From Candidatus Hydrogenedens sp. (GTDB lineage: Bacteria > Hydrogenedentota > Hydrogenedentia > Hydrogenedentales > Hydrogenedentaceae), in assembly GCA_049968235.1 (NCBI GenBank), contig JBMFRC010000012.1:1-64000 (forward strand): a DNA stretch of 64,000 nt. The letters run 5' to 3'. Shown here piece after piece: positions 37,994 to 60,881 of the stretch. How positions within the stretch are numbered: the first letter of the stretch is position 1; each line of letters starts with the position of its first letter. The notes beneath the pieces are model-generated. The model did no database searches, was not told the origin of the DNA, and saw nothing but the letters and a program-made list of their open reading frames with translations. Position numbers and translations under genes: made by a program.

Positions 37994-38022
37994 TTGACAA
38001 GGAGTAAACAGTGTGCTATAAT
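37994..38022 (+). promoter_or_regulatory. Consensus sigma70 promoter, TTGACA - 17 nt - (TGc)TATAAT, upstream of rex
   Basis: TTGACA lies at 37994-37999 and TATAAT at 38017-38022. The TG of the extended -10 is at 38014-38015. Confidence 0.65.
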
Positions 38023-38101: not shown

Positions 38102-38797
38102 ATGGTATCTGAGAAAACAGTAGAAAGATTAAGTTTATACCGCCGAATACTTCAACAATTGAGGGTCGAGAGTAAAGAAACTATAATGTCCCATGAACTT
38201 GCGAATATGTTACACATAAAGCCAGCACAGGTACGCAGGGATATTATGCAATTAGGTTATTCAGGAATACCTAATAGTGGTTATAGAATTCGACCTCTTT
38301 TAGAGAGTATTGCAAATTTTTTAGATTCCCCGTTGCCTCAGAGTGCTGTTTTAGTAGGTGTTGGACATTTAGGACTTGCGTTATTGGCTAACTTTGCAGG
38401 ACGATGGAGGCAATTAGCTATTCGTGCCTCTTTTGATAAAGACCCTGCAAAAGTAGGACAGACTTTTCATGGTTGTCGTTGTTATGCTATGTGTGATTTG
38501 CAAAAAGTAATTGCGGAGACAAAAAGTGTAGTAGGCATCCTGGCAATACCGGGTGAAAGTGCCCAATCTGTTTGTGACCTTCTTGTTCAGTCAGGTATTA
38601 GTGGCGTATTAAATTTTTCCCCATTGCGAATTAAAGTGCCTGATAATGTCTTTATAGAACATGTTGACCTTTCCGCTACGTTTGAAAAAGTTTCGTTCTT
38701 TGCAAGAAGAATGAAACATTATGCAGAAGAAGAAAAACGGAAAGTAGAAAATGAAATTACTGAGGGTGAATACGAAACATTAACAACCAATCAATAA
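38102..38797 (+). CDS. rex: Redox-sensing transcriptional repressor Rex
   Basis: The N-terminal winged helix reads TVERLSLYRRIL. The Rossmann fold reads AVLVGVGHLGLALL, and a C-terminal swap helix is present. Confidence 0.85.
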   Translation: MVSEKTVERLSLYRRILQQLRVESKETIMSHELANMLHIKPAQVRRDIMQLGYSGIPNSGYRIRPLLESIANFLDSPLPQSAVLVGVGHLGLALLANFAGRWRQLAIRASFDKDPAKVGQTFHGCRCYAMCDLQKVIAETKSVVGILAIPGESAQSVCDLLVQSGISGVLNFSPLRIKVPDNVFIEHVDLSATFEKVSFFARRMKHYAEEEKRKVENEITEGEYETLTTNQ

Positions 38798-38823: not shown

Positions 38824-39348
38824 ATGAATGAAGAATCAAAGCATGCGTGTATGGAAGAAGCAAGTGAAGAAGAACTGCTTGCTCGGCTTGATGAAGTAAT
38901 TGCAGAATATAAGGACAAGCCCGGTGCTCTTATTCCTGTTCTGCAGATTGCTCAGGCTATGTTTGGTTATCTACCCGAAAGTGCATTAAAAAAGATTAGT
39001 TTGGGACTGAACAAACCGTATAGTGAAGTTGCAGGTGTGGTAACATTTTACTCATTCTTTTCAACCCAGCCTCGTGGAAAACATATGATTCGTGTCTGTT
39101 TAGGAACTGCTTGTTATGTCCGTGGTGGCAAACAGGTTCTTTCTGCAATTAAGGATAAACTCCATATTGATGTTGGAGAGACCACGAAAGACCGTATGTT
39201 CTCTTTAGAGGTGGCTCGTTGTTTTGGTGCTTGTGGGCTTGCTCCTGCCATTATGGTGGATAACGATGTGCATCAACGGGTAAAACCTGCCCGAATTCAG
39301 GCTATTTTAGACCAGTATTTAGACAAAAACACAGAAAAAAATAAATAA
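38824..39348 (+). CDS. hndA: NuoE-like [2Fe-2S] subunit of an NAD(P)-linked [FeFe]-hydrogenase (HndA / HydC-like)
   Basis: It has a thioredoxin-like fold with 2Fe-2S Cys ligands (CLGTACYVRG...CFGACGLAP). It is ~174 aa, and its RBS is AGGAGA. Confidence 0.82.
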   Translation: MNEESKHACMEEASEEELLARLDEVIAEYKDKPGALIPVLQIAQAMFGYLPESALKKISLGLNKPYSEVAGVVTFYSFFSTQPRGKHMIRVCLGTACYVRGGKQVLSAIKDKLHIDVGETTKDRMFSLEVARCFGACGLAPAIMVDNDVHQRVKPARIQAILDQYLDKNTEKNK

Positions 39349-39370: not shown

Positions 39371-39742
39371 ATGTCAAATATTATTCATTCTCCAGAAGAC
39401 CTTAATGCTTTACGAGAAAAGGCAATTAAGGACATTGAGATTCGTAATTCACATAAAGATTTGGTGATTACTGTTCACATGGGAACATGTGGTATTGCTG
39501 CGGGTGCCAGAGAAGTATTAAAAAATATCATCTCTGAAATTTCTGCTATAGGTATAACCAATGTTACAGTCCGTCAATCTGGATGTGCAGGTCTCTGCGA
39601 CCGTGAACCCATGATTACGGTTACTCATAAATCCTCCGGTTCTGAATATCGTTATGGAAAATTAAACACGGAAAAGATACGAGAAATTGTGAAACAGCAT
39701 ATTGCAGAAGGTAAACCTGTGATGGAATATTTAATTTCCTGA
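39371..39742 (+). CDS. hndB: Small thioredoxin-like [2Fe-2S] ferredoxin subunit (HndB-like)
   Basis: The 2Fe-2S ligand motifs are HMGTCGIAAGA and SGCAGLCDREPM. It is 123 aa, and its RBS is AAGGAGA. Confidence 0.72.
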   Translation: MSNIIHSPEDLNALREKAIKDIEIRNSHKDLVITVHMGTCGIAAGAREVLKNIISEISAIGITNVTVRQSGCAGLCDREPMITVTHKSSGSEYRYGKLNTEKIREIVKQHIAEGKPVMEYLIS

Positions 39743-39825
39743 TGAAGAAATACAGGGTAAATTCGGATTCCCATAAAGTGGTTGAGATGAACATGTATAG
39801 CAAAATAAGAAAGAATGATATAGAA

Positions 39826-41271
39826 ATGAAAATGAACATATTACATCTATTTCTTATTTTATTTTTATGTTCATCCGCAACCTTTACTGAAATATCTGAT
39901 TGGGAAACCATCTCACTTTCGGATACAGGAGAAGCATTACAAAATCCCGGCATGGGATGGGTATTACATTTTTACGATAATGTTCCTGAAAATTATGGTT
40001 CTAAATTAGCCCCTTCAGATACTGTTGATGAATTCCCTGCCCTTTCAGTTATTTATTTGCGAATAGCATGGTCGTTTTTAGAACCTGAAGAAGGAAAGTA
40101 TAACTGGTCTATATTGGATACTCCTTCTCAACGATGGATTTCTAAAGGGAAACAAATTGCTTTGCGCATTACCTGTAGTGAAACTCCTATTCCATGGGCG
40201 ACACCAAAATGGGTTTATGAAGCAGGAGCCAAAGGTAATTTCTTCATTCCTACCCAGGGGATAAAAGAAAATGGGACACATTGGGAACCCGAATTTGATG
40301 ACCCTGTTTTCTTGGATAAGTTGGATAATTTTTTAGCAGTGTTAGCAAAGAGATATGATGAAAATCCGGAAATAGCCTTCATAGATATGGGTTCATTAGG
40401 AGTGTGGGGAGAAGGTCATGTATGGCATTCCACACAAAAACATATTTCGACGGAAACCATAAAAAAACACATTGATTTGCACATAAAGCACTTTAAAAAC
40501 ACAATAATTGCTCTAAATGATGACCTTATCACAAATGGGCAAAAATTGGATGTAATTCCCGAAGAGAAAAAAGAACTCCTCAATTATGCTATCAAAAATG
40601 GGTTAACACTTCGCGATGATAGTATTCTTGTTCAGGGTGGAGATAATGTATATTTTAGTGCAAGCCTTGCGGAATACTTCTGGCGAAATAGACCTATCAT
40701 TTTAGAATCTGAACATTATGGACCATCAAAGGCTGAAAGGCATTGGGGGGACGGAAGTAAATATTTACAGGCTGTAGAAGATTACCATGCAAGTTATACT
40801 TCTATTCATTGGTGGCCAAGGGAGTTTTTACAAGAAAACAAAGATTTGATAGATAAAATCAATCTTCGTTTGGGGTATCGTATTGTCCCTACCGAAGTTA
40901 AATGGCAAAAGACAGTAAAAATATCCGAGAAAAAATGGGATATATCCTACCGTTGGGCAAATAAAGGAGTGGCACCTTGTTATCGGGATGTATATCCCAT
41001 TATTACATGGAAAGATGAGAAAGGAGGAATTGTTGCTGTTTTTACAGATGAGACATTTAATCTCAAACAATTACCAATAGGGAAGCAGGATGAATTAAAA
41101 GAAATTGAGGTAAAAAAATCTTTTTTTATTCCTTTTTTATTGAAAGAAGGAAATTATACAGTATTCATTTCAGCGGGTTCTATTACGGGCACGCCTGAAA
41201 TTCAATTACCGTTAAACAACACAGACCATGAAAAAAGATATGTTATAGGTAAAGTTAATGTTGTTTTGTGA
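39826..41271 (+). CDS. Secreted clan GH-A TIM-barrel glycoside-hydrolase-like protein (GH42/GH35-like N-terminal signature). The tracked ORF begins at 39742; the start at 39826 gives a clean signal peptide.
   Basis: The signal peptide is MKMNILHLFLILFLCSSATF. NPGMGW is present. IAWSFLEPEEGKYNW resembles the GH42 signature AWSxxEPxEGxY. MGSLGVWGEGHVWHS is also present. Confidence 0.55.
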   Translation: MKMNILHLFLILFLCSSATFTEISDWETISLSDTGEALQNPGMGWVLHFYDNVPENYGSKLAPSDTVDEFPALSVIYLRIAWSFLEPEEGKYNWSILDTPSQRWISKGKQIALRITCSETPIPWATPKWVYEAGAKGNFFIPTQGIKENGTHWEPEFDDPVFLDKLDNFLAVLAKRYDENPEIAFIDMGSLGVWGEGHVWHSTQKHISTETIKKHIDLHIKHFKNTIIALNDDLITNGQKLDVIPEEKKELLNYAIKNGLTLRDDSILVQGGDNVYFSASLAEYFWRNRPIILESEHYGPSKAERHWGDGSKYLQAVEDYHASYTSIHWWPREFLQENKDLIDKINLRLGYRIVPTEVKWQKTVKISEKKWDISYRWANKGVAPCYRDVYPIITWKDEKGGIVAVFTDETFNLKQLPIGKQDELKEIEVKKSFFIPFLLKEGNYTVFISAGSITGTPEIQLPLNNTDHEKRYVIGKVNVVL

Positions 41272-41342
41272 AAAAAAATATAAAGATATAAATAAAAACT
41301 TCAGAAATGAAGCATACACAAGTTATGGAAAGGAGAAAAAAA

Positions 41343-44300
41343 ATGAGTCCATTTCGAAGTCATGTATTAATCTGTGCAGGTGCAGGATGCGTGGCATCAG
41401 GTTCGATGGAAGTAAGTTCCGCCTTTTCGGAGGCACTTGCCAAACATGGGCTAAATGAAGAAATTCAAGTAGTCCATACAGGATGTTTAGGACCCTGTGC
41501 TATTGGTCCCGTGGTCGTGATTTATCCAGATGCTATTTTTTATCAAGGTGTTAAAACAACAGATGTTGAAGATATTGTTGTTGAGCATCTGTTAAAAGGT
41601 CGGCCTGTTAGTCGCTTGAATTTCAAATCTACTACCACATCACAAATTATTCCTGCACTGCAGGAGATTGGTTTTTTCAAGCAACAGACAAAGATAGTTT
41701 TAAGGAACTGTGGTATTATAGACCCTACAAAAATTGAGGAGTATATTGCGAGAGATGGGTATCAGGCTTTAGCAAAAGTACTGACAAAAATGACTCCACA
41801 GCAGGTAGTAGAAGAAGTGAAAAAATCTGGACTTCGGGGAAGAGGTGGTGCAGGATTCCCAACAGGTATAAAGTGGGAGTTAACTCAAAAAGCCCACGGA
41901 GATAAGAAATATGTTCTTTGTAATGCTGATGAAGGTGACCCGGGCGCATTTATGGACAGAAGTGTTTTGGAAGGTGACCCCCATAGTGTTATTGAAGCTA
42001 TGATTATAGCAGGATATGCCATTGGTTCTGACCAGGGATATATTTATGTTCGAGCAGAATATCCTTTAGCGGTAGAGAGATTAAATATAGCGATAAAGCA
42101 AGCCAGAGAATATGGTTTGTTAGGTAAGAATATTATGGGAACGAATTTTAATTTCGACCTTGAAATACGAATGGGTTCAGGTGCTTTTGTGTGTGGAGAA
42201 GAAACCGCATTGATGCGTTCTATCGAAGGGAAACGCGGAGAACCCAGACCCCGTCCACCGTTCCCTGCATATAAAGGTTTATGGGAAAAACCCAGTTTAT
42301 TAAATAATGTAGAAACCTATGCAAACATCCCTGTAATTATATTAAAAGGTGCTGATTGGTTTGCTTCCATAGGAACAGGTAAAAGTAAAGGAACAAAAGT
42401 GTTTGCCTTAGCAGGTGCTGTAAACAACACAGGATTGGTCGAAATTCCGATTGGTACACCATTAGGTGAAATTATTTATGATATTGGCGGTGGAATTCCG
42501 CGAGGCAAACAATTTAAGGCAGCGCAAATTGGAGGTCCTTCCGGCGGTTGTATTCCAAAACAACATCTGAATGTGCCGGTAGATTACGAGTCATTACAGG
42601 AATTAGGAGCGATTATGGGTTCCGGTGGATTAATTGTTATGGATGAAGACACATGTATGGTCGATATGGCTCGTTTCTTCCTTGACTTTGTTCAGGATGA
42701 GTCATGTGGAAAATGTGTCCCATGCCGGGTCGGAACGAAAAGAATGTTGGAAATTGTGACAAGGATTTGTGAGGGTCGGGGAGAAGAAGGCGATATTGAA
42801 AAACTTATTGAATTAGGACAACAGATTAAAGATGCATCGTTATGTGGATTAGGGCAGACAGCTCCAAACCCTGTTCTTTCTGCAATACGGCACTTCCGTG
42901 ATGAATTTGAAATTCATATTCGTGAACATAAATGTCCGGCGGGTGTCTGTCCATCTCTTGTTCGTGCTCCTTGTATGAGTGCTTGCCCGGCAAATGTTTA
43001 CATTCCGGGTTTTGTCTCATTAATATCTGAAAAACGATATGCGGAAGCACTTCGTGTGCATCGTGACCAGAACCCCTTTGCATCTGTATGTGCCCGTGTG
43101 TGTTTCCATACTTGTGAGGACAAATGTAGAAGAGCTACTCTGGATGAAGCGGTATCCATACGCGGATTGAAGCGATTTATGGTAGAGCAAGAAGTTACAA
43201 TACAACTACCTGAAATTCGTGAAAATGAACAAAATCTTCGCAAAAAGGTGGCTATTATAGGAGCAGGTCCTGCAGGTCTAACCTGTGCTTATTTCCTTGC
43301 ACGATTAGGCTATCAACCCCGTGTTTTTGAATCTGCACCCAGGCCCGGCGGTATGTTAGTTCAAACAATTCCCGCTTATCGGTTACCCCGAGAAGAATTG
43401 GCTCGAGAAATTCGTATGATAGAAAGAATGGGCGTTGTCATAGAAACTGAAAAAGCCTTAGGTCGTGATTTTACATTACAAAGCCTTCGTGATGATGGAT
43501 ATGAGGCTATTTTTCTCGGAATAGGTGCTCCATCAGGTCAAAAATTGAGAATTCCAGGCGAAGATGCGGATGGCGTTGTCGAAGCCATAGACTTCCTTCG
43601 TGAATACAATCTCCGTGGTTCTGTTCCTGTAGGGAAAAATGTTGTTATTATAGGAGGTGGTAATGCAGCTATTGATGCGGCAAGAACTGCCATTCGTTTA
43701 GGAGCAAAAAAAGCAACGATTCTTTACCGCAGAACAAGAGAAGAGATGCCTGCGTATAAAGAAGAGATCGAAGAAGCAGTTAATGAAGGTGTTATTTTAA
43801 AAATGTTAGTAACTCCACTGGAGATTTTGACAGAAAACGGAAAAGTTGTTGGTGTAAAATGTCAACACATGTGGTTAGGAGAATATGACCGTTCCGGTAG
43901 AAGAAGACCTGAAGCCAAAAAGGGTGAAGAACCCTTTGTTGAAGAAGCAGACCAGGTTATTGCAGCAATAGGGCAAACTGTTGATTTAAAACGTTACCTG
44001 GATGGATTAAATGTTAAGTTAACACCTTCTGGTTTCTTGTGGGTAGACCAATTATATGGTCAGACCTCTATTGAATGGTTATTTGCAGGTGGTGATATTA
44101 GTTCAGGTCCTTCTTCCGTAGCAGAAGCAATCGGTGCTGGTGAAAGAGCTGCAGTTGGAATTGATAAGTATCTTACTGGAGAAGAACATGCTTTCTGGCG
44201 CGAACCCTATATGGTAGATACAGAATTTGACCCAGATTCCGACCCGGTAGATTTCCCAAGAGCAAAAATGAAACTTTTACCTGTTGAAAAGAGGGTACAC

Positions 44301-44414
44301 AACTTTAATGAAGTTGAAATCCCGTTTACGGAAACATTAGCGGTAAGAGAGGCACGCCGTTGCTTACGTTGTGATTATCGTGAAACAAAAATAAGTTTAA
44401 ATACACAACAATAA
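41343..44414 (+). CDS. hndC: NuoF-like flavoprotein subunit (HndC-like) fused to a C-terminal GltD/NfnB-like NAD(P)H oxidoreductase. The tracked ORF starts at 41307; the RBS-supported start is 41343.
   Basis: The N-terminal thioredoxin-like 2Fe-2S domain reads LICAGAGCVASG...CLGPCAIGP. The NuoF core carries GRGGAGFPTGIKW and ESCGKCVPCRVGT. A 2x[4Fe-4S] region follows, then the GltD-like part: CARVCFHTCEDKCRR, FAD GxGxxG (AIIGAGPAGLTCAYFLA) and NAD(P) GxGxxA (VVIIGGGNAAIDAAR). AAGGAG lies 7 nt before the 41343 ATG. Confidence 0.85.
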   Translation: MSPFRSHVLICAGAGCVASGSMEVSSAFSEALAKHGLNEEIQVVHTGCLGPCAIGPVVVIYPDAIFYQGVKTTDVEDIVVEHLLKGRPVSRLNFKSTTTSQIIPALQEIGFFKQQTKIVLRNCGIIDPTKIEEYIARDGYQALAKVLTKMTPQQVVEEVKKSGLRGRGGAGFPTGIKWELTQKAHGDKKYVLCNADEGDPGAFMDRSVLEGDPHSVIEAMIIAGYAIGSDQGYIYVRAEYPLAVERLNIAIKQAREYGLLGKNIMGTNFNFDLEIRMGSGAFVCGEETALMRSIEGKRGEPRPRPPFPAYKGLWEKPSLLNNVETYANIPVIILKGADWFASIGTGKSKGTKVFALAGAVNNTGLVEIPIGTPLGEIIYDIGGGIPRGKQFKAAQIGGPSGGCIPKQHLNVPVDYESLQELGAIMGSGGLIVMDEDTCMVDMARFFLDFVQDESCGKCVPCRVGTKRMLEIVTRICEGRGEEGDIEKLIELGQQIKDASLCGLGQTAPNPVLSAIRHFRDEFEIHIREHKCPAGVCPSLVRAPCMSACPANVYIPGFVSLISEKRYAEALRVHRDQNPFASVCARVCFHTCEDKCRRATLDEAVSIRGLKRFMVEQEVTIQLPEIRENEQNLRKKVAIIGAGPAGLTCAYFLARLGYQPRVFESAPRPGGMLVQTIPAYRLPREELAREIRMIERMGVVIETEKALGRDFTLQSLRDDGYEAIFLGIGAPSGQKLRIPGEDADGVVEAIDFLREYNLRGSVPVGKNVVIIGGGNAAIDAARTAIRLGAKKATILYRRTREEMPAYKEEIEEAVNEGVILKMLVTPLEILTENGKVVGVKCQHMWLGEYDRSGRRRPEAKKGEEPFVEEADQVIAAIGQTVDLKRYLDGLNVKLTPSGFLWVDQLYGQTSIEWLFAGGDISSGPSSVAEAIGAGERAAVGIDKYLTGEEHAFWREPYMVDTEFDPDSDPVDFPRAKMKLLPVEKRVHNFNEVEIPFTETLAVREARRCLRCDYRETKISLNTQQ

Positions 44415-44431: not shown

Positions 44432-46204
44432 ATGCCAAAATTAACTATAGATGGAATTCCCGTAGAAGTTCCGGAAGGAACAACAATACTTCAAGCGGCA
44501 AAGCAAATAGGATTAAAAATACCGACACTTTGTTATCTTGAAGAAGTTCAAGCCATCGGTGCCTGTCGTGTTTGCGTTGTTGAAGTTGAAGGAGCACGAA
44601 CTTTGGTCGCTTCTTGTGTTGCTCCTGTTGCGGAAGGAATGAAAGTCCATACAAATTCAAAAAGAGCCCGTGAGGCACGAAAAACAGTTGTAGAATTGTT
44701 ACTATCCGACCATGATGGCGATTGCCAGATTTGTGTTCGAAATGAAGATTGTGAACTTCAGGAATTGGCACGAACACTTGGGATAAAGGAAATTCGCTAT
44801 CAAGGTGAGAAGAGAAAACGGATTGTGGATGAAAGCACTCCCGCTGTTGTTCGTGATACATCGAAATGTGTCTTATGTAGAAGATGTATAACGGTTTGCA
44901 ATGAGGTTCAGGGTGTTGGCGGACTGTTCCCACAAAATCGTGGCTTTGAAACGGTAATAGGTCCCGCATTTTGTAGTGATTTGGATGATGTCGTATGTGT
45001 TCAGTGTGGTCAATGTAGTGCGGTTTGTCCTGTGGGTGCTATTGTAGAAAGAGACCAGATTGCGGATGTCTTTTCTGCATTAGATGACCCGACAAAAACA
45101 GTCGTTGTCCAGACAGCCCCTGCAATTCGTGCCGCATTGGGAGAATGTTTTGGTTTACCACCCGGAACTTTAGTAACAGGGAAGATGGTTACCGCACTTC
45201 GTAGACTGGGTTTCCATGCCGTTTTTGATACTAACTTTGCCGCTGACCTTTGTATTATGGAAGAAGGTACAGAACTGCTAACTCGATTGAAGAAAAAACT
45301 GGTAGATGGGGAGAATATTGCTCTTCCTATGTTTACCAGTTGTTCTCCGGGGTGGATTAAGTTTTTAGAACATTTCTACCCGGATATGATTCCAAATGTA
45401 TCTACATGCAAATCCCCACAGCAAATGTTTGGTGCTATAGCAAAGACCTATTATTCCAAGAAAATTGGTAAGAAACCCGAAGATATTGTTGTTGTTTCTA
45501 TTATGCCCTGTACAGCGAAGAAATATGAACATCAGCGTCCCGAGATGAACAGTTCCGGTGTTCGTGATGTGGACTATGTGCTTACAACGCGTGAATTGGG
45601 TCGGATGATAAAACAGGCAGGCATTGATTTTGTAAATCTACCCGATGACAAGCAAGACTCACCATTAGGACTATCCTCTGGTGCTGCGGATATTTTTGCG
45701 AATACCGGGGGTGTTATGGAAGCGGCAATTCGAACTGTTTATGAAATAGTAACAGGACGCGAATTACCATTCGATGGACTTCATGTTGCTCCTATCGAAG
45801 GATTAGAAGGAATCAAGGAAGCCTCCTTGAAGATAGAAAAATGTGTGCCTGAATGGTCTTTCTTAGAAGGGGCTACCGTAAATGTTGCTGTGGCTCATGG
45901 ATTGGGTAATGCCAGAGCATTAATAGAGCGAGTTCGCTCAGGTGAAAAGGCGTATCACTTTATAGAAATTATGACCTGTCCCGGTGGATGTATTGGTGGA
46001 GGAGGACAACCTCGCTTTACAGATAATTCAGTTCGTCTTGCTCGTATTCAGGCCATATACAAAGAGGATGAAGGGAAACAACTTCGTAAGTCCCATGTAA
46101 ATCCTGACATACAAAAATTGTATAAGGAATTTTTAGGACATCCGAATAGTGAAGTTTCACATCATCTATTACATACGCATTACAATCCGAGAACAAAAGT
46201 ATAA
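44432..46204 (+). CDS. hndD: [FeFe]-hydrogenase catalytic subunit, M3 architecture (HndD/HydA-like), with non-canonical L1 motif TSCSPGW
   Basis: It has an N-terminal 2Fe-2S domain, a His-ligated 4Fe-4S (HDGDCQICVRNEDC) and two ferredoxin-like 4Fe-4S clusters. The H-cluster motifs are L2 MPCTAKKYE and L3 EIMTCPGGCIGG. The L1 motif reads FTSCSPGW. Confidence 0.88.
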   Translation: MPKLTIDGIPVEVPEGTTILQAAKQIGLKIPTLCYLEEVQAIGACRVCVVEVEGARTLVASCVAPVAEGMKVHTNSKRAREARKTVVELLLSDHDGDCQICVRNEDCELQELARTLGIKEIRYQGEKRKRIVDESTPAVVRDTSKCVLCRRCITVCNEVQGVGGLFPQNRGFETVIGPAFCSDLDDVVCVQCGQCSAVCPVGAIVERDQIADVFSALDDPTKTVVVQTAPAIRAALGECFGLPPGTLVTGKMVTALRRLGFHAVFDTNFAADLCIMEEGTELLTRLKKKLVDGENIALPMFTSCSPGWIKFLEHFYPDMIPNVSTCKSPQQMFGAIAKTYYSKKIGKKPEDIVVVSIMPCTAKKYEHQRPEMNSSGVRDVDYVLTTRELGRMIKQAGIDFVNLPDDKQDSPLGLSSGAADIFANTGGVMEAAIRTVYEIVTGRELPFDGLHVAPIEGLEGIKEASLKIEKCVPEWSFLEGATVNVAVAHGLGNARALIERVRSGEKAYHFIEIMTCPGGCIGGGGQPRFTDNSVRLARIQAIYKEDEGKQLRKSHVNPDIQKLYKEFLGHPNSEVSHHLLHTHYNPRTKV

Positions 46205-46223: not shown

Positions 46224-46247
46224 GGGGAGTGTGAGTGAGCACTCCCC
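46224..46247 (+). terminator. Stable hairpin after hndD: 8-bp GC-rich stem GGGGAGTG / CACTCCCC with an 8-nt loop and no U-tract
   Basis: It lies 20 nt downstream of the hndD stop. It may be a partial terminator or an RNA-stability element. Confidence 0.4.
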
Positions 46248-46329: not shown

Positions 46330-46725
46330 ATGGAAAATAAAATTATAATGGTCGTTGATGATGATATTGATGTTCAGGATTTCTGTAAAATTGTATTAGG
46401 AAGAGAGGATTATCAGGTTATAACATTTTCCAACTCAGAGAGTGCACTCGAATATTTATCGTCGAACACTCCCTCTGTAATTATTACCGATTTAATGATG
46501 GGTGGAATTGATGAGGGTGTCCAATTTGTTAATAAGATTAGAGGATTCGATAATGAGAAGGCAAAAATTCCAATTATAATGATTACAGGCATAAATTCAA
46601 AATTAGGATATGACATCACTCCCCGTTCCGATGAAGAAAAAAAACAAATGAAAATCGATGAATTTATATCAAAACCTTTAAATCCAAAACAGTTAATAAC
46701 AGCACTAAAAAAAGTAATCAAATAG
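46330..46725 (+). CDS. Stand-alone response-regulator receiver (REC) domain protein
   Basis: The acidic pocket reads VVDDD. The phospho-acceptor Asp lies in VIITDLMM, and a conserved Lys is present. It is 131 aa with no output domain. Confidence 0.8.
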   Translation: MENKIIMVVDDDIDVQDFCKIVLGREDYQVITFSNSESALEYLSSNTPSVIITDLMMGGIDEGVQFVNKIRGFDNEKAKIPIIMITGINSKLGYDITPRSDEEKKQMKIDEFISKPLNPKQLITALKKVIK

Positions 46726-46777: not shown

Positions 46778-48175
46778 ATGAGTTCAAATGTAGAAACTGT
46801 TCCTATTAATGAGGAATTTATTTTTGATACTTTAAAAAATAGTGTCAAGAAAGATGCGGTTTACATCAAAGAAATTCTTGCAAAAGCCCTTGAATTAAAG
46901 GGATTAGATGCGACAGAAGTAGCCACGCTTGCAACAATAAGTGACCCTGACCTGTTAAAAGAACTTTTCGATACAGCCCGAAAAGTCAAAGAGGAGATTT
47001 ACGGTAAACGATTAGTTCTTTTTGCCCCACTTTATGTATCAAATCTTTGCAAGAATGAATGCTTATATTGTGCTTTCCGTAAAAGTAACAAGATGGTTCG
47101 TAGAAAAGCATTGACACAAGAAGAAGTCCGTAGAGAGGTTGAAACATTGGTTGACCAGGGGCATAAACGCATTCTATTAGTGGCAGGCGAGTCCTATCCT
47201 TCCGAAGGATTTGATTATGTTATTCATTGTATCGAAACAATATATAGTGTAAAGCGGGATAGGGGAGAGATACGACGCGTAAATGTGAATATAGCACCCT
47301 TATCGTTAGAGGAATTTAAAAGGCTGAAATCAGCAAAAATTGGGACATATCAGTTATTTCAAGAAACATACCACAGAGAAACATACCAAAAAGTCCATGT
47401 AGGTGGACTTAAAAAGGATTTTGACTGGAGAATTACCGCTATGGACCGTGCTATGAAAGCTGGCATTGATGATGTGGGTGTTGGCGTTCTTTTTGGCTTA
47501 TTTGATTGGAGATTTGAAATACTTGCTTTAATGCAACATATTAAACATTTAGAAGATACCTTCGGTGTAGGATGTCACACGATAAGTGTACCTCGCCTTG
47601 AACCTGCTATAGGTTCAGACCTGGCTTCACATCCCCCTTATCCGGTATCAGACCTTGATTTCAGAAAAATTGTAGCTATACTAAGACTTGCTGTGCCCTA
47701 TACAGGAATAATAATGTCCACTCGTGAAACTCCCAATATACGAAGAGAAACCTTTGCACTGGGTGTATCACAAATATCAGCAGGCAGTAGAACGAATCCA
47801 GGTGGGTATACAGGCAGTGAAGAAGAGGATATGAGCCAATTCTCATTAGGTGACCATCGCAGTCTGGATGAGGTTATTCGTGATGTTACAAAATTAGGTT
47901 ATATCCCATCCTTCTGCACGGCTTGTTATCGTTTAGGCAGAACAGGTGCTGACTTTATGGACCTTGCCAAGCCGGGTCTTATCAAGAACCATTGTGAAGT
48001 TAATGCTTTAAGCACTTTTGCTGAATATCTGGAAGATTATGCATCCTCCGAAACAAAACAAATAGGTTGGGCAAAGATTGAGGAAATTTTAAATACAATG
48101 CCTGAAGTTCGGAAAAAACGTACCGAAGGGATGTTGGCTCGTGTAAAAGCCGGTGAACGGGATGTATATGTGTAA
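46778..48175 (+). CDS. hydG: [FeFe]-hydrogenase maturase HydG (radical SAM tyrosine lyase, ThiH-like)
   Basis: The radical SAM motif is CKNECLYC. The ~465 aa length and a C-terminal auxiliary-cluster Cys motif (FCTACYRLGRTG) fit HydG. It sits in the hyd cluster. Confidence 0.85.
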   Translation: MSSNVETVPINEEFIFDTLKNSVKKDAVYIKEILAKALELKGLDATEVATLATISDPDLLKELFDTARKVKEEIYGKRLVLFAPLYVSNLCKNECLYCAFRKSNKMVRRKALTQEEVRREVETLVDQGHKRILLVAGESYPSEGFDYVIHCIETIYSVKRDRGEIRRVNVNIAPLSLEEFKRLKSAKIGTYQLFQETYHRETYQKVHVGGLKKDFDWRITAMDRAMKAGIDDVGVGVLFGLFDWRFEILALMQHIKHLEDTFGVGCHTISVPRLEPAIGSDLASHPPYPVSDLDFRKIVAILRLAVPYTGIIMSTRETPNIRRETFALGVSQISAGSRTNPGGYTGSEEEDMSQFSLGDHRSLDEVIRDVTKLGYIPSFCTACYRLGRTGADFMDLAKPGLIKNHCEVNALSTFAEYLEDYASSETKQIGWAKIEEILNTMPEVRKKRTEGMLARVKAGERDVYV

Positions 48176-48180
48176 ATCTT

Positions 48181-49602
48181 ATGTCAGACTACCGAATTGA
48201 AACCGACTTATTGGGTGAAAAAAAGATACCTGCGGATGTCTATTGGGGTATACATACTGCTCGTGCAGTAGAAAATTTTCCTGTTTCCCGACTCTCGGTT
48301 CATTCAGAATTAATCCAATCTTATGGAATTGTAAAACTTGCATGTGCAAAAATAAATTATTCGTTAGGATACTTATTACATCCTCCTGATAAATCATCTG
48401 CCATATTTAACGCTTGCGAAGAAGTAGCAATTGGTAAATGGAATGACCATATTATCGTGGATGCTCTACAGGGTGGAGCAGGAACCAGCACAAATATGAA
48501 TATTAATGAGGTTATTGCCAACCGTGCCCTAGAAATATTGGGCTTACCACGGGCAAAATATGACATTATTTCCCCATTAGATGATATAAATCTTCACCAA
48601 TCGACTAACGATACTTATCCTACCGCCCTGAAACTTGCTACGATAAGGATGTTAAGAAAATTAGAATCAGAAATTATTCTTCTTTTAGAGACATTTCAAA
48701 CACTTGAAAAACAATTTTCGGACATAGTAAAAATTGGAAGGACAGAACTTCAAGATGCAACGCCTATTACATTAGGTAGGGAGATGGGTGCTTATGCAGA
48801 TGCCCTAGTAAGAGACCGTTGGCGTATCTATAAGTGTGAAGAAAGATTGCGAGTAGTTAATTTAGGAGGCACCGCAATAGGAACAGGTTTAGGAGCACCA
48901 AGGGATTATATTTTCCGTGTTGTAGATAATCTGCGAGAGTTATCAAATATCGGTTTTTCGCGAGCAGAAAATTTAGTAGATGCAACTCAAAATCTCGATG
49001 TATTTGGGGAAGTATCAGGTATCATTCGTTCCTATGCCATAACGCTTAATAAAATAGCCAATGATTTGAGACTAATGTCATCCGGACCCGAAGCAGGTCT
49101 CCGTGAAATTCAACTTCCACAATTACAAGCGGGTTCATCTATTATGCCAGGGAAAGTGAACCCTGTTTTGCCTGAAGCGGTATGCCAGGTTGCAATGCTA
49201 ACATTTGGATTCGACCAGATTATCACATATGGCTGTTCTTCCGGAAACCTTGAACTAAATCCTTTTGTCCCTTTGATTGCTCATTGTTTGTTAAATATGA
49301 TTGAAATGTTAACAAATGTAACAAAATTATTTACGGAAAAATGTATTAAAGGAATTTCGCCGAACCGAGAGGTTTGTGTTTCCTATGTGAATAATTCTAC
49401 AGCAACTCTAACCGCACTTATACAGAAGATAGGATATGAAAAAGCATGTATGATTGCTAAAAAAACAAGTAATTTGAAAAAGAGTATTCGAGAAATTGTA
49501 TTGGAAGAAGGAGTTTTGACTCCTGAAGAATTTGATACTCTTTTAAGTCCTGAGTCCGTTTGTAAATTAGGATTTGTTGACACCAGTAATGAGATAGATT
49601 AG
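48181..49602 (+). CDS. aspA: Aspartate ammonia-lyase-like protein (fumarase/aspartase superfamily)
   Basis: The N-terminus IETDLLGEKKIPADVYWGIHTARAVENF is aspartase-like. The superfamily signature GSSIMPGKVNP is present. Confidence 0.78.
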   Translation: MSDYRIETDLLGEKKIPADVYWGIHTARAVENFPVSRLSVHSELIQSYGIVKLACAKINYSLGYLLHPPDKSSAIFNACEEVAIGKWNDHIIVDALQGGAGTSTNMNINEVIANRALEILGLPRAKYDIISPLDDINLHQSTNDTYPTALKLATIRMLRKLESEIILLLETFQTLEKQFSDIVKIGRTELQDATPITLGREMGAYADALVRDRWRIYKCEERLRVVNLGGTAIGTGLGAPRDYIFRVVDNLRELSNIGFSRAENLVDATQNLDVFGEVSGIIRSYAITLNKIANDLRLMSSGPEAGLREIQLPQLQAGSSIMPGKVNPVLPEAVCQVAMLTFGFDQIITYGCSSGNLELNPFVPLIAHCLLNMIEMLTNVTKLFTEKCIKGISPNREVCVSYVNNSTATLTALIQKIGYEKACMIAKKTSNLKKSIREIVLEEGVLTPEEFDTLLSPESVCKLGFVDTSNEID

Positions 49603-49611
49603 GAAGGAAAT

Positions 49612-50865
49612 ATGCTTAGAGCATCACCAAAATCATTTCGACTGCATATTGGTTTTTTTGGTAGAAGGAATGTTGGAAAATCCAGTTTACTTAATGCAAT
49701 TACACGACAAAATGTCTCAATTGTTTCTGAATCCGCAGGAACCACAACAGACCCCGTGGAAAAACCTATGGAACTACTACCTTTAGGTCCTGTTCTATTC
49801 ATTGATACTGCGGGCATTGATGATATAGGTGCTTTAGGAGAATTACGGATACAAAAAACAAGACAAATTTTTGACCGAACCGATGTTGCGGTTGTTGTTA
49901 CAGAAGCCGGTATATGGGGAGAATTTGAGGAAGGCTTGTGTAATGAGTTTAAGTCAAGAAATGTTCCTATCGTAGTTGTGTTTAACAAAGTGGACCTGCA
50001 TGAACCTGATGAAACATTGTGTAATAGGTTGAAAAATGAGAAAATTCTATATGTAAAGACTATTGCATCAAAGCAGGATGGTATTAGTGAACTCAAAAAT
50101 GCACTTATTTCTTCAGCCCCCGATGATTTTATAAATAGTCCAACGATTTTAGGAGATTTGGTAGCTCCTGGTGAATTGGCTGTGCTTGTCGTGCCTATAG
50201 ATAAAGAAGCACCTAAAGGAAGACTTATTATGCCTCAGGTTCAATCCATCCGTGATTTGTTAGATAACGATGCTATGTGTGTTGTCGTAAAAGAAAGAGA
50301 ACTCCGGCGAATTTTAGAACAATTAAAAATTCTTCCAAAGATTGTTGTTACTGATTCCCAGGCATTCTTAAAAGTCGTCGCAGATACTCCTTCCAATGTA
50401 TGGGTTACAAGTTTTTCAATATTATTTTCAAGATTCCGCGGAGATTTAATTACACAGGTGGAAGGAACACTTGCTATCGAATCATTGAAACCCGGAGATA
50501 AAATACTTATTGCAGAATCATGCTCGCATCACCCTATTGCCGATGATATAGGAAGGGTTAAAATACCAAGATGGTTAATGCAATATATCGGTGGAAAATT
50601 AGAATTTGATACTGTTCAGGGAAATGATTTTTTTTCAGATTTAACAAAATATAAAATGGTTATACACTGTGGAGCATGCACACTCAATCGCCGTGCTATG
50701 TTAAATCGTATTATGCATTGCAAAAAACAAGGGATACCAATAAGTAATTACGGGTTAACTATAGCCTATTCTTTAGGTATCCTCGAAAGGGCATTAGAAC
50801 CATTCCCATCCGCATTGGAAATATATAAACAGAAAACAACAAAAAAGTTGCAAAACATTAAATAA
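49612..50865 (+). CDS. hydF: [FeFe]-hydrogenase maturation GTPase/scaffold HydF
   Basis: The P-loop is GRRNVGKSSLLN with NKVD alongside. The C-terminal Fe-S motif is CSHHP...HCGACT (CxHx~50HCxxC). Confidence 0.85.
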   Translation: MLRASPKSFRLHIGFFGRRNVGKSSLLNAITRQNVSIVSESAGTTTDPVEKPMELLPLGPVLFIDTAGIDDIGALGELRIQKTRQIFDRTDVAVVVTEAGIWGEFEEGLCNEFKSRNVPIVVVFNKVDLHEPDETLCNRLKNEKILYVKTIASKQDGISELKNALISSAPDDFINSPTILGDLVAPGELAVLVVPIDKEAPKGRLIMPQVQSIRDLLDNDAMCVVVKERELRRILEQLKILPKIVVTDSQAFLKVVADTPSNVWVTSFSILFSRFRGDLITQVEGTLAIESLKPGDKILIAESCSHHPIADDIGRVKIPRWLMQYIGGKLEFDTVQGNDFFSDLTKYKMVIHCGACTLNRRAMLNRIMHCKKQGIPISNYGLTIAYSLGILERALEPFPSALEIYKQKTTKKLQNIK

Positions 50866-50873
50866 AATAAAAC

Positions 50874-51926
50874 ATGGATAAAAAAAATATTATTAATTGG
50901 CTTCGTGAAAAAAACGAAGATAAATTAAACGAACTATGGGAATTGGCGGATTCTATCCGCAGTAAATATGTAGGAGAAGAGGTGCATCTTCGAGGTTTGA
51001 TAGAAATATCAAACTATTGCAAAAAAAACTGTCTATACTGTGGAATACGAATTTCTAATAGAAAATTAACCCGATATAGAATGGAAGACAGCGAGATTTT
51101 GGAATGTGTGGAATTTGCCAAAAGAAATGGCTATGGAACAATAGTCCTTCAATCCGGCGAAGACCCCGATTTTACAAAAGAAAAAATCGCCGAATTAATT
51201 AGAAAAATAAAAGAAAATGCAAATGTGGCTATTACATTAAGTTTAGGAGAGCAGGAAAAACACACATTAGAATTATGGAAATCTGCCGGAGCCAATCGTT
51301 ATCTTCTTCGTTTTGAAACCTCAGATGAAATCCTATTTAAAAGAATCCATTCGTCAGAACAAGCAAAAAGTTTAGAGAATAGAATTAAACAACTAAAAAT
51401 ACTTAAACAATTAGGCTACGAAGCAGGAAGTGGGATAATGATTGGAATACCCTATCAAACTTATGAAAGCATCGCTAATGATATCCTACTTTTCAAACAA
51501 TTAGACCTTGATATGATAGGAATAGGACCATACATTCCTCATCCCGATACACCTTTAGGACAGGAATATCTTAATAAATATAAAAAAGATGATGAAAAAT
51601 TTGTCCCAAACACAGAATTAATGACATATAAAGTCCTTGCATTAACCCGAATTATATGTCCAACCGTAAACATTCCTGCCACCACTGCCCTTGCAACTGT
51701 GAATACACGAGAAGGTCGCATTTTAGCCCTGAAGAGGGGAGCCAATGTTATCATGCCGAATCTCACTCCACCAAAATATAAAAAATTGTATGAAATTTAT
51801 CCAGGTAAATCGTCTGCTGATGAACCTCCAGAAATTATTCATCAAAGTATAATGAAGATTATAGAAAAGGCAGGAAGAAAAGTAGGAACAGGGATGGGAA
51901 ATCGCAAAAAAATCATAGATATTTAA
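50874..51926 (+). CDS. hydE: [FeFe]-hydrogenase maturase HydE (radical SAM, BioB-like)
   Basis: The radical SAM motif is CKKNCLYC. It is ~350 aa, and the TIM-barrel radical SAM core resembles BioB/HydE. Confidence 0.85.
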   Translation: MDKKNIINWLREKNEDKLNELWELADSIRSKYVGEEVHLRGLIEISNYCKKNCLYCGIRISNRKLTRYRMEDSEILECVEFAKRNGYGTIVLQSGEDPDFTKEKIAELIRKIKENANVAITLSLGEQEKHTLELWKSAGANRYLLRFETSDEILFKRIHSSEQAKSLENRIKQLKILKQLGYEAGSGIMIGIPYQTYESIANDILLFKQLDLDMIGIGPYIPHPDTPLGQEYLNKYKKDDEKFVPNTELMTYKVLALTRIICPTVNIPATTALATVNTREGRILALKRGANVIMPNLTPPKYKKLYEIYPGKSSADEPPEIIHQSIMKIIEKAGRKVGTGMGNRKKIIDI

Positions 51927-54989: not shown

Positions 54990-55493
54990 ATGAAAAGTAT
55001 AAAAAGATATTTTTCAACAGTAGTAATTATAATGTTGCTTTCTACTTTACTAATGTCTTTGGGATGTGGTTCTATGCCATGGAAAAAGAAAAATGAGCAA
55101 CCTCCTCCTGTCGAATTATTAGATGAAACAAAAACGGAAAACACAAACACATTACCGGGAGAAGGTACTACTCTTGTTCCGGGACCACAACGATTTAAAG
55201 ATGTTCCATTACCGGATAAAGTAAAAGAAGATTTTGACCGCTCTTATGTCTATGAATCAAGCACATTACAGGTAGGCAGGATGGTGTATTCTATTCGTGC
55301 CGATGCCAATGATGTAGCACAATTTTATGTAAAAGAATGTCCCAAATATGGTTGGAAATTAGATAATGTAATACAAGGTGATGGAGTGCAGTTAAATTAT
55401 TCTAAAGAAGGTAAAAAATTACAGGTAAATGTTCGACCTCAGGGAATTGGAAGACCCAAACAGTTAGTTTTAATTTTAACACCGTCAGAATAA
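54990..55493 (+). CDS. Hypothetical lipoprotein
   Basis: It has a signal peptide with an LGCGS lipobox. No recognised catalytic motif is present. Confidence 0.45.
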   Translation: MKSIKRYFSTVVIIMLLSTLLMSLGCGSMPWKKKNEQPPPVELLDETKTENTNTLPGEGTTLVPGPQRFKDVPLPDKVKEDFDRSYVYESSTLQVGRMVYSIRADANDVAQFYVKECPKYGWKLDNVIQGDGVQLNYSKEGKKLQVNVRPQGIGRPKQLVLILTPSE

Positions 55494-55503
55494 AATTACT
55501 TCG

Positions 55504-56013
55504 ATGAAAATAATAAGAAATAGAAAATTAAGAGAATCATATTTTAAAGGTGTTCTATTTGTTTTTTCTTTACAATTATCTCTTTTTCTTTTCTCCTGTG
55601 GAACCATAAAAAAAATAGATATTCCTCTTATAAATAGAAATTCTTCTACGGAGCAGGAAAAAATCGCTACCATTTTAGATACAGTAGAAAAACTAATAGA
55701 GCGGAAACAGGTAAAAAAAATAATGGTTTATGTTTCTCTTGAATATCGAGATGAACAAAATCGAAAATATAATGATATTAGAGAATATCTTCAAAGTATA
55801 GTTAGAGATTACAGAGTAATTCGAATTACAAGAGCAACTCCGGATATAAAAATAGACGGGAACACTGCAACGGTTATAGATACCTTTGGAACAGTTGCAG
55901 AACCTTATGACCCGGTTCAAGGCGTTCCTGTGAATGTGCAGGGTAAAGTTATTATTTCCCTGCAAAAAGAGCCTGATGGCTGGAAAATTAAATCGTGGAG
56001 TCCACTTTTGTAA
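55504..56013 (+). CDS. Hypothetical lipoprotein (SnoaL/NTF2-like fold suspected)
   Basis: It has a signal peptide with an FSCGT lipobox. The C-terminal segment is beta-rich. Confidence 0.4.
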   Translation: MKIIRNRKLRESYFKGVLFVFSLQLSLFLFSCGTIKKIDIPLINRNSSTEQEKIATILDTVEKLIERKQVKKIMVYVSLEYRDEQNRKYNDIREYLQSIVRDYRVIRITRATPDIKIDGNTATVIDTFGTVAEPYDPVQGVPVNVQGKVIISLQKEPDGWKIKSWSPLL

Positions 56014-59780: not shown

Positions 59781-60881
59781 TTATCCAACTTCTACCTTTT
59801 CGGTGATATTCAAACAGTTTAATATTTCCTTTTCATTCGGTTCTACGGTAATGGGCTGTTCAGCCACAGCAACGGCATTATCTGGGTCTTTCAACCCATG
59901 TCCAGTTAATATACAAACAATTTGCAGTTTCTCGGAGGCAAAAGGTTTCTGATTATCAAAATATCCATTTTCTGCAAGTTTAATAACTCCTGCAATACTT
60001 GCAGCACTTGCAGGTTCTACAAAAACGCCCTCAGTTCGCGCTAATAATTTATAAGCATTGCGAATTTGCTGGTCGGTAACCATTCCAATAACGCCACCCG
60101 ACTCATCCCTTGCGTTTTCTGCACCTTTCCAACTTGCGGGATTCCCTATACGAATAGCCGTTGCAAATGTTTGAGGATTTTCAACAGGATGTCCGAGGAC
60201 AATGGGTGCAGAACCTGAAGCTTGAAATCCTAACATTTTAGGTAAGTTTTTTGACCTTCCTGCTTGATAATATTCTTTATATCCTTTCCAATATGCCGTT
60301 ATATTCCCTGCATTACCTACGGGCATACATTGAAAATCAGGAGCAAAACCATTAAAAGAGTCAACTATTTCAAAAGCACCTGTTTTTTGTCCTTCAATAC
60401 GGTAGGGATTTACAGAATTTACAAGTGCTATGGGGTGGTCATTACATATTTTACGTACCAATCGTAACGCATCATCAAAGTTCCCTTTTATCTGTATAAC
60501 TTTTGCTCCATGTATCATGGCTTGTGATAATTTACCCAGAGCAATTTTCCCTTCAGGTATTAGAACTGCACATTGAAGTCCTGCCCGTGCTGAATATGCT
60601 GCTGCAGAAGCAGATGTATTTCCGGTGGACGCACACATAACTACTTTGTACCCCTCCTCTCTGGCTTTTGTAACTGCAACCGTCATACCTCTATCTTTAA
60701 ATGAGCCTGTTGGGTTCATGCCTTCATATTTTAACCAGATATTTATATGAGGGTGTATCGCAGAACTTAATGCAGGAGCCTGGATTAAAGGAGTTCCACC
60801 TTCATTTAAGGTAACAATGGGTGTGTTAATTCCTACGGGTAGAAATTCACGATAGCGTTCAATGATACCGATGTTTTGCAT
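59781..60881 (-). CDS. thrC: Threonine synthase
   Basis: The PLP site reads [15 protein letters not shown]. Confidence 0.88.

What the first reader, a model, noticed from the sequence alone, without database searches (positions are those of the whole stretch)
48181..49602. Aspartate ammonia-lyase-like gene embedded between hydG and hydF
A full-length fumarase/aspartase-superfamily enzyme sits between hydG and hydF, with 5-nt and 9-nt intergenic gaps. Its GSSIMPGKVNP signature and N-terminus are aspartase-like. I recall, from memory only, that aspA-like genes recur next to hydG in some sulfate reducers and other anaerobes. The azadithiolate bridgehead nitrogen of the H-cluster requires an ammonia/amine donor. 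A translationally coupled ammonia-lyase would be a candidate local NH3 supplier. Alternatively it could be a fumarate/aspartate-linked redox partner.
Basis: partly seen in the sequence, partly recalled or inferred. Interest (0 to 1): 0.55.

Follow-up and report, generated by a model that had tools for sequence, protein, structure and literature searches.

The report
Aspartase gene inside hydrogenase maturation operon
A full-length aspartate ammonia-lyase gene sits between the [FeFe]-hydrogenase maturation genes hydG and hydF, an arrangement already published with the same ammonia-donor explanation; what is added here is that these operon-linked aspartases form their own evolutionary branch, separate from housekeeping aspartases.

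Summary
Window 48181-49602 (+) encodes a 473-aa aspartase-type member of the fumarase/aspartase superfamily. It lies 5 nt after hydG and 9 nt before hydF, with hydE next, downstream of a group A6 [FeFe]-hydrogenase.

The hydG-aspA-hydF order was noted in 2012 and 2016. Pagnier et al. 2024 (JBC 300:107760) reported the hyd/aspA association and showed in vitro that E. coli AspA plus 15N-aspartate supplies the bridgehead N of the dithiomethylamine ligand.

In an NJ tree of 168 homologues, one split (96/100 bootstrap) defines a 127-member clade containing the window protein. 121 of those members have a hyd gene within 2 kb. Of the 41 sequences outside (E. coli AspA, Bacillus AspB, FumC, 38 metagenomic), one is hyd-linked.

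All aspartate-binding and catalytic residues are conserved. 27 positions, including the motif NLHQSTND, separate the clade from the other aspartases sampled.

The gene tracks the maturases rather than hydA: 37 of 57 well-flanked loci with a maturase gene have no hydA nearby.

No member of this subfamily has been assayed. Already known; low to moderate interest.

The parts
48181..49602 (+). aspartate ammonia-lyase-like gene (473 aa), member of the hyd-linked aspartase subfamily
49132..49164 (+). SS-loop signature GSSIMPGKVNP (catalytic Ser319; Lys325 and Asn327 in window numbering)
48589..48612 (+). motif NLHQSTND. S141, T142 and N143 are aspartate-binding residues. His139 is characteristic of the subfamily (93% inside the clade, 0% outside)
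46778..48175 (+). hydG (radical SAM maturase); stop codon 5 nt before the aspartase ATG
49612..50865 (+). hydF (GTPase scaffold); ATG 9 nt after the aspartase stop, preceded by GGAAGGA
50874..51926 (+). hydE (radical SAM maturase)
46330..46725 (+). stand-alone response-regulator receiver domain between hydA and hydG
44432..46204 (+). [FeFe]-hydrogenase catalytic subunit, group A6 (NF040763, 907 bits)
41307..44414 (+). NuoF-like flavoprotein fused to a GltD-like NAD(P)-binding domain (hydrogenase diaphorase subunit)
38824..39348 (+). NuoE/HoxE-like 2Fe-2S subunit
38102..38797 (+). Rex redox-sensing repressor at the head of the cluster
37994..38022 (+). perfect sigma-70-type consensus (TTGACA-17-TATAAT with TG) upstream of rex; a consensus match only

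Best explanation
The gene encodes a tetrameric class-II-lyase-fold aspartate ammonia-lyase. It is co-transcribed with hydG, hydF and hydE and acts as an accessory factor for H-cluster biosynthesis. It splits L-aspartate into fumarate and NH4+. The NH4+ is taken up by the glycine-cleavage T-protein, together with methylene-THF and reduced lipoyl-H-protein, to form aminomethyl-lipoyl-H-protein. That intermediate donates the CH2-NH-CH2 unit that HydF uses to build the dithiomethylamine bridge of the [2Fe] subcluster. What is shown here: the gene, its operon-like placement, an intact aspartase active site, and membership of a monophyletic aspartase subfamily that has stayed next to hydG/hydF across many phyla. 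What is shown in the literature: NH4+ is the N source, and E. coli AspA plus 15N-aspartate labels the ligand in a defined in vitro system. What is inferred: that this subfamily is an active aspartase, and that it is the physiological NH4+ source in vivo.
For: Family and active site. The best PDB match is AspB 1J3U (E 4e-129). In AspB numbering, T101, S102, N104, Q139, S140, T141, N142, D143, R186, T187, Q190, D191, G317, S318, S319, M321, P322, K324 and N326 are invariant in 81 close relatives. Position 188 is Gln or Glu; E. coli AspA has Gln there.

Synteny. 78 of the 80 nearest GTDB species loci carry hydG and/or hydF within 10 kb. Four of four more distant relatives (49-59% identity; Desulfonauticus, Thermodesulfobacterium, Thermanaeromonas, Acetivibrio) are hyd-linked. 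Pooled over informative loci, window-type aspartases are 119 linked to 3 unlinked, while AspA/AspB-type are 2 linked to 18 unlinked (Fisher p 9e-18, loci not phylogenetically independent).

Phylogeny. One NJ bipartition with 96/100 bootstrap holds 121 of the 122 hyd-linked sequences and excludes E. coli AspA, AspB and FumC.

Gene order. G-asp-F(-E) and E(-)-G-asp-F dominate. The aspartase tracks the maturases: 57 of 60 well-flanked loci have a maturase gene and only 20 have hydA.

Literature. PMC11736057 reports the hyd/aspA association, and incorporation of 15N from aspartate into DTMA with E. coli AspA. PMC12501116 places AspA in the maturation pathway figure.
Against: No enzyme of the hyd-linked subfamily has been assayed; the in vitro test used housekeeping E. 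coli AspA. The protein scores below the curated aspA equivalog cutoff (516 vs 681 bits). 27 positions differ systematically from the other aspartases sampled, so altered regulation or specificity cannot be excluded. According to PMC11736057, some [FeFe]-hydrogenase organisms lack aspA in the hyd operon, so it is not universally required. Free NH4+ is normally plentiful in cells (general knowledge), which makes a dedicated supplier hard to rationalise without channelling or a special physiological setting. No glycine-cleavage genes lie in this 64-kb window. Three clade members sit in unrelated contexts (L076, L114, L118).
Confidence: 0.72

Rival explanations
1. Metabolic coupling rather than maturation. 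The aspartase feeds aspartate carbon into fermentation, or supplies fumarate as an electron acceptor, so that aspartate use is coordinated with H2 production or consumption. This was proposed for Pelobacter carbinolicus and appears as a secondary idea in Pagnier 2024.
For: PMC3543383 proposes aspartate degradation coupled to H2/formate release. PMC11736057 discusses fumarate as an anaerobic electron acceptor. The window cluster is headed by a Rex redox sensor.
Against: The gene follows the maturases, not the hydrogenase. 37 of 57 well-flanked maturase-linked loci have no hydA within 7.5 kb, and none has hydA without a maturase. No fumarate reductase, C4-dicarboxylate transporter or aspartate transporter was found next to it in the window. 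By contrast, E. coli housekeeping aspA sits next to dcuA.
Confidence: 0.12
2. An ordinary housekeeping aspartase that happens to lie in this operon, with no functional tie to hydrogenase.
For: The active site is fully aspartase-like. Sources annotate it simply as aspartate ammonia-lyase. Three clade members are not hyd-linked.
Against: 119 of 122 informative window-type loci are hyd-linked, and in 88 of 121 linked loci the nearest hyd gene is within 150 nt. The clade is monophyletic with 96% bootstrap and excludes the E. coli and Bacillus housekeeping types. It scores below the aspA equivalog cutoff.
Confidence: 0.03
3. The subfamily has a modified role beyond bulk NH4+ release. Possibilities include direct hand-off of NH3 to the T-protein or HydF through a protein contact, NH4+-gating of the HydF GTPase, or action on a substrate other than free L-aspartate.
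For: 27 subfamily-discriminating positions, including invariant or nearly invariant His139, Trp214, Arg222, Glu176 and Gln173 (window numbering), are absent from the other aspartases sampled. PMC11736057 notes that ammonium stimulates HydF GTP hydrolysis and that aspA is almost always next to hydF. Cross-phylum identity is 60-65%, similar to HydG and HydF and higher than HydE.
Against: All known aspartate-binding and catalytic residues are unchanged. No fusion of the aspartase with any Hyd protein was found among the 10 extended representatives scanned. hydF is directly downstream in only 41 of 101 loci. Heterologous E. coli AspA suffices in vitro. I could not map the discriminating positions onto a structure.
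Confidence: 0.13

Closest known systems
hyd-operon-associated aspartate ammonia-lyase (aspA) as described by Pagnier et al. 2024, JBC 300:107760; earlier noted in Pelobacter carbinolicus (2012), Sulfurospirillum cavolei and Desulfovibrio vulgaris (2016)
   Same: The gene order hydG-aspA-hydF is the same, as is the Pfam architecture and the proposed role as NH4+ donor for the dithiomethylamine ligand through the glycine cleavage H/T proteins.
   Different: Nothing essential differs. This is a further instance in a Candidatus Hydrogenedens MAG. The published analysis was at the Pfam-domain level and used E. coli AspA as the test enzyme. It did not report that the operon-linked genes form a separate subfamily.
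Bacillus sp. YM55-1 aspartase AspB (PDB 1J3U, 3R6V, 3R6Q)
   Same: 47% identity over the full length. It has the same SS loop and the same substrate-binding residues T101, S140, T141, N142, T187, S318, S319, K324 and N326.
   Different: AspB lies outside the hyd-linked clade. AspB has His188, Ser138 and Asn132 where the window protein has Glu, His and Leu. AspB-type metagenomic loci are not hyd-linked (2 of 20).
Escherichia coli AspA (PDB 1JSW)
   Same: 43.5% identity and aspartase motifs. It has Gln at the AspB-188 position, as in 64 of the 81 close relatives.
   Different: It is a housekeeping gene next to dcuA, with no hyd genes nearby. It lies outside the clade. It meets the TIGR00839 type, whereas the window protein scores below that cutoff.
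Class II fumarase FumC
   Same: Same fold, same tetrameric superfamily, and an identical GSSIMPGKVNP loop.
   Different: 39% identity. FumC has GTQSN and QSSND where the window protein has GTSTN and QSTND. The fumC_II model scores 420 against a cutoff of 665.

Membership tests
Fumarase/aspartase (class II lyase) superfamily | Lyase_1 domain plus FumaraseC_C domain over the full length | tested here: met
   PF00206 at 269 bits (residues 12-339) and PF10415 at 60 bits (residues 411-460)
Fumarase/aspartase (class II lyase) superfamily | SS-loop signature GSSxMPxKxN with the catalytic serine | tested here: met
   GSSIMPGKVNP at nt 49132-49164; invariant or nearly so in 81 relatives
Aspartate ammonia-lyase (EC 4.3.1.1) | Aspartate-binding residues of AspB (T101, S140, T141, N142, T187, K324, N326) and aspartase-type motifs GTSxN / QSTND rather than fumarase GTQSN / QSSND | tested here: met
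   All are conserved in the window protein and in 81 of 81 close relatives
Aspartate ammonia-lyase (EC 4.3.1.1) | Score above curated family thresholds | tested here: inconclusive
   The subfamily model NF008909 passes (629 > 510). The equivalog TIGR00839 fails (516 < 681) and NF011092 fails (478 < 876)
Aspartate ammonia-lyase (EC 4.3.1.1) | Catalyses L-aspartate = fumarate + NH4+ | not testable with these tools
   Needs an enzyme assay. No member of the hyd-linked clade has a solved structure or a reported assay in the searched literature
hyd-operon-associated ammonia-lyase (Pagnier et al. 2024) | Ammonia-lyase gene within +/-10 ORFs of hydF, typically adjacent | tested here: met
   9 nt upstream of hydF and 5 nt downstream of hydG
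hyd-operon-associated ammonia-lyase (Pagnier et al. 2024) | Association conserved in relatives rather than a single-genome coincidence | tested here: met
   119 of 122 informative window-type loci are linked; the clade is monophyletic at 96/100 bootstrap
hyd-operon-associated ammonia-lyase (Pagnier et al. 2024) | Supplies the bridgehead N of DTMA during maturation | not testable with these tools
   Shown in vitro only for E. coli AspA (PMC11736057)
Class II fumarase (FumC) | fumC_II equivalog score and fumarase-type motifs | tested here: not met
   TIGR00979 scores 420 < 665; S102 and T141 occupy the positions where FumC has Q and S

The most novel reading that the evidence does not exclude
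The hyd-linked aspartases would be a dedicated fourth maturation factor rather than a generic NH4+ source. They form an ancient subfamily, co-inherited with hydG/hydF, with 27 positions that separate it from the other aspartases sampled (for example His139, Trp214 and Arg222). Those residues could adapt the enzyme to deliver NH3 directly to the T-protein/HydF machinery, or to couple aspartate cleavage to HydF GTPase gating. If so, the E. coli enzyme used in vitro would be only a partial surrogate.
Probability: 0.15. Interest if true: 0.6.

Novelty: already known. Interest (0 to 1): 0.25.

Why it matters
[quoted passage not shown] By 2022-2024 it had been traced to NH4+ delivered through the glycine cleavage H/T proteins, with ammonia-lyases as suppliers. 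This window adds nothing fundamental to that picture; it is one more example, in a Hydrogenedentota MAG. The useful increment is practical. The operon-encoded enzymes are a distinct, well-conserved subfamily that has never been tested. Anyone optimising heterologous or cell-free [FeFe]-hydrogenase maturation, or asking why a dedicated NH4+ source exists at all, should test a member of this clade rather than E. coli AspA.

Tried and rejected
(1) An unusual Glu at the AspB-His188 position (GRTELQDA) looked like a possible specificity change. I rejected it: the clade has Gln in 64 and Glu in 17 sequences, and E. coli AspA also has Gln.

(2) I looked for fusions between the aspartase and Hyd proteins among the long representatives. 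I scanned 10 of the extended ones. Where a second domain was found it was an unrelated partner (cNMP-binding, malic enzyme, S51 peptidase, zinc fingers); none was a Hyd protein.

(3) I looked for glycine-cleavage, glyA, sdaA or ilvA genes in the window. None are present, and the PALP gene at 59781-60881 is threonine synthase.

(4) The Rfam scan of the whole window found nothing.

(5) The promoter/terminator scan gave counts at the level expected from shuffles. No convincing terminator lies between hydG and hydE.

(6) The representative-library search gave tree context, but its proteins cannot be looked up for genomic context. I therefore used a profile search plus look-up of encoding contigs and the metagenome scan.

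(7) I did not run structure prediction. The tool returns no coordinates, and 47% identity to a solved aspartase already fixes the fold. The subfamily-specific positions therefore could not be mapped in 3D.

Full report
OBSERVATION. The window carries a co-directional gene string on the + strand:
- Rex repressor, 38102-38797
- NuoE/HoxE-like 2Fe-2S subunit, 38824-39348
- a 123-aa ferredoxin-like ORF, 39371-39742
- a 509-aa DUF4832/GH42-like ORF, 39742-41271
- a 1035-aa NuoF-GltD fusion, 41307-44414
- a group A6 [FeFe]-hydrogenase, 44432-46204
- a stand-alone receiver domain, 46330-46725
- hydG, 46778-48175
- the gene in question, 48181-49602
- hydF, 49612-50865
- hydE, 50874-51926
- then, after a 627-nt gap, leuC and leuD

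There are 5 nt between the hydG stop and the ATG at 48181, and 9 nt between the stop at 49602 and the hydF ATG. The latter is preceded by GGAAGGA. The hydF-hydE gap is 8 nt. The product is 473 aa and contains GSSIMPGKVNP. An identical protein is on record as 'aspartate ammonia-lyase [Candidatus Hydrogenedens sp.]', so the window comes from a Hydrogenedentota MAG.

WHAT THE PROTEIN IS. It has the Lyase_1 and FumaraseC_C domains. Among solved structures the best match is Bacillus aspartase AspB 1J3U (434 bits, E 4e-129). E. coli AspA scores 390 bits, E. coli FumC about 332 bits, and other class II fumarases up to about 353 bits. I aligned it with 80 close relatives, E. coli AspA, AspB and E. coli FumC. 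Every residue known to bind aspartate or catalyse the reaction in AspB (T101, S140, T141, N142, T187, S318, S319, K324, N326) is invariant. The discriminating motifs are of the aspartase type (GTSxN, QSTND) rather than the fumarase type (GTQSN, QSSND). A Glu at the AspB-His188 position first looked unusual. It is not: the clade has Gln or Glu there, and E. coli AspA has Gln. In NCBIfam the protein passes the broad aspartase subfamily model but falls below the aspA equivalog cutoff. That was the first hint that it is not a canonical housekeeping AspA.

IS IT A HOUSEKEEPING ENZYME OR A HYD-SPECIFIC ONE?

First, a scan of one genome per GTDB species returned the 80 closest loci (59-86% identity). 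They come from Hydrogenedentota, Prolixibacteraceae (Draconibacterium, Maribellus, Mariniphaga, Tangfeifania), Planctomycetota, Acidobacteriota, Limisphaerales, Bacillota and other MAGs. tblastn with the window's Hyd proteins found hydG and/or hydF within 10 kb in 78 of the 80. One exception is a 21-kb Armatimonadia locus with unrelated neighbours (L076). The other is a 5-kb contig that starts at the gene (L077).

Second, a profile search with more distant representatives gave named relatives at 49-59% identity. All four that I looked up are hyd-linked: Desulfonauticus, Thermodesulfobacterium commune, Thermanaeromonas toyohensis and Acetivibrio clariflavus.

Third, a metagenome scan returned 80 further loci. 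These turned out to be a natural mixture of window-type and AspA/AspB-type aspartases. I counted only informative loci, meaning those that are linked or have at least 2.5 kb on both sides. Pooled over all samples, window-type genes are 119 linked to 3 unlinked. AspA/AspB-type genes are 2 linked to 18 unlinked (Fisher p about 9e-18, but the loci are not phylogenetically independent and the sampling was pattern-driven). In 88 of the 121 linked loci the nearest hyd gene is within 150 nt.

Fourth, I built a neighbour-joining tree of 168 sequences rooted on FumC. One bipartition has 96/100 bootstrap support (transfer bootstrap 0.99). It defines a clade of 127 sequences: 121 hyd-linked (including the window), 3 informative unlinked and 3 on short contigs. 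E. coli AspA, AspB, FumC and 38 metagenomic aspartases fall outside, and only one of those (L130) has hydF nearby. A broader tree with 50%-identity representatives gives the same picture: the window clade and a ladder of intermediates sit apart from the AspB and E. coli AspA groups. The gene belongs to a hyd-specific aspartase subfamily.

FEATURES OF THE SUBFAMILY. Twenty-seven alignment positions are at least 85% conserved inside the clade and at most 10% shared outside it. In window numbering they include His139 (motif NLHQSTND), Leu133, Gln173, Glu176, Trp214, Arg222, Arg252 and Arg261. From memory, which I have not verified, Leu133 and His139 lie in the segment that forms the second dicarboxylate ('B') site in FumC. 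I could not map positions in 3D. His139 is not absolute: nine linked loci carry Ser, Cys or Gly there.

Gene order is dominated by E(-)-G-asp-F (32 loci) and G-asp-F-E (22 loci, the window's order). hydG is directly upstream in 73 of 102 loci, and hydF is directly downstream in 41 of 101.

The aspartase tracks the maturases rather than the hydrogenase. Of 60 clade loci with at least 7.5 kb on both sides, 57 carry a maturase gene. Only 20 carry a hydA detectable with the window's HydA, and none has hydA without a maturase. A caveat is that divergent HydA groups may be missed at the 250-bit threshold I used.

HOW IT MOST LIKELY WORKS. The published model fits. Pagnier et al. 2024 (PMC11736057) showed that NH4+ is the source of the DTMA bridgehead nitrogen in a defined maturation system containing HydE/F/G, H-protein, T-protein and SHMT. 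They showed that E. coli AspA with 15N-aspartate, or SdaA with 15N-serine, delivers that nitrogen. They also reported that aspA is strongly associated with hydF in genome neighbourhoods. A 2025 PNAS paper includes AspA in the pathway scheme. The hydG-aspA-hydF order itself had been noted for Pelobacter carbinolicus in 2012, and for Sulfurospirillum cavolei and D. vulgaris in 2016.

My comparative results strengthen the link. They are inference and not proof that this subfamily is an active aspartase, or that it is needed in vivo. The in vitro work used the housekeeping E. coli enzyme, and the bioinformatics was done at the Pfam-domain level. I found no paper in the searchable library that assays an operon-encoded enzyme or describes a distinct subfamily.

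RIVALS. A purely metabolic role (aspartate fermentation, or fumarate as an electron sink) was proposed earlier. It fits poorly with the gene following hydG/E/F even where no hydA is nearby, and with the absence of dicarboxylate transport or fumarate reductase genes next to it. E. coli aspA, by contrast, sits next to dcuA. A hitch-hiking housekeeping gene is essentially excluded. A more specialised role, such as NH3 hand-off or gating of the ammonium-stimulated HydF GTPase, is allowed by the 27 discriminating positions. It has no direct support. No fusions with Hyd proteins were found among the 10 extended representatives scanned, and the active site is unchanged.

OPERON STRUCTURE. A perfect sigma-70 consensus lies upstream of rex at 37994-38022. 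A GC-rich hairpin follows hydA at 46224-46247, without a T-run on the + strand. No convincing terminator lies between hydG and hydE. Overall counts of both site types match the shuffle expectation, so these are weak indications only. Translational coupling is plausible from the 5-9 nt gaps but is not demonstrated.

VERDICT. This is another instance of a known arrangement, in a phylum where it had simply been auto-annotated. The modest new point is that the operon-linked aspartases are a monophyletic, signature-bearing subfamily that has never been tested directly. Novelty: already known. Interest: 0.25.

Noticed in passing
window 59781-60881 (-), next to homoserine dehydrogenase 60902-62203 (-): A PALP-domain enzyme lies within about 10 ORFs of hydF. 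It is threonine synthase (TIGR00260, 333 bits vs cutoff 167), not threonine or serine ammonia-lyase. Counting 'ilvA/sdaA' near hydF by Pfam domain, as in the published neighbourhood analysis, could pick up such genes as false positives.
   Followed up: partly
window 41307-44414 (+) and 39742-41271 (+): The hydrogenase flavoprotein subunit is a 1035-aa fusion of 2Fe-2S, NuoF and GltD-like NAD(P)-binding modules. A 509-aa DUF4832/GH42-like ORF with no NCBIfam match sits inside the hydrogenase gene string, between the NuoE-like and NuoF-like genes. The same fusion is 92-96% conserved in L001-L003.
   Followed up: no
window 46330-46725 (+); L006 12142-14102 (-): A stand-alone response-regulator receiver domain sits between hydA and hydG and is conserved in related Hydrogenedentota loci (L001, L002, L004). 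In Draconibacterium a histidine kinase plus OmpR-type regulator pair sits between the aspartase and hydF. Two-component signalling genes seem to recur within these clusters.
   Followed up: partly
window 27893-30715 (+) and 27312-27818 (+): A 940-aa protein is packed with EF-hand calcium-binding domains (EF-hand_7, 201 bits), which is unusual for a bacterium. It lies next to a small dockerin-domain protein.
   Followed up: no
L083 5756-6004, L086 4681-4932; L083 7735-8004, L084 10917-11177: Small ORFs recur in hyd maturation clusters. A TM1266-like protein (PF21699) lies upstream of hydG in Desulfonauticus and Acetivibrio. Unannotated 86-89-aa ORFs lie right after hydG in Desulfonauticus and Thermodesulfobacterium. 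The window has no counterpart.
   Followed up: no
L130 8001-12258 (human gut metagenome contig): An AspB-type aspartase, outside the hyd-linked clade, lies 1.8 kb upstream of a hydF homologue, with a 136-aa ORF and a non-specific endonuclease in between. This could be an independent recruitment or a coincidence.
   Followed up: partly
protein P0121 (1420 aa; representative library): This protein looks eukaryotic from its composition. It has two cyclic-nucleotide-binding domains, each followed by an aspartase-like domain, and it was the top-scoring representative (595 bits). The second lyase domain has a degenerate SS loop (QTSLIPGKNDP).
   Followed up: no
window 35621-37843 (-), 54990-56013 (+): A 740-aa ORF and two ORFs of about 168 aa have no Pfam match at the thresholds used.
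   Followed up: no
window 46224-46247: A GC-rich 8-bp-stem hairpin (GGGGAGTG...CACTCCCC) lies 20 nt after the hydA stop. It has a T-run only on the minus strand. It may be a transcript-stabilising or partial termination element separating hydA from the regulator and maturase genes.
   Followed up: no
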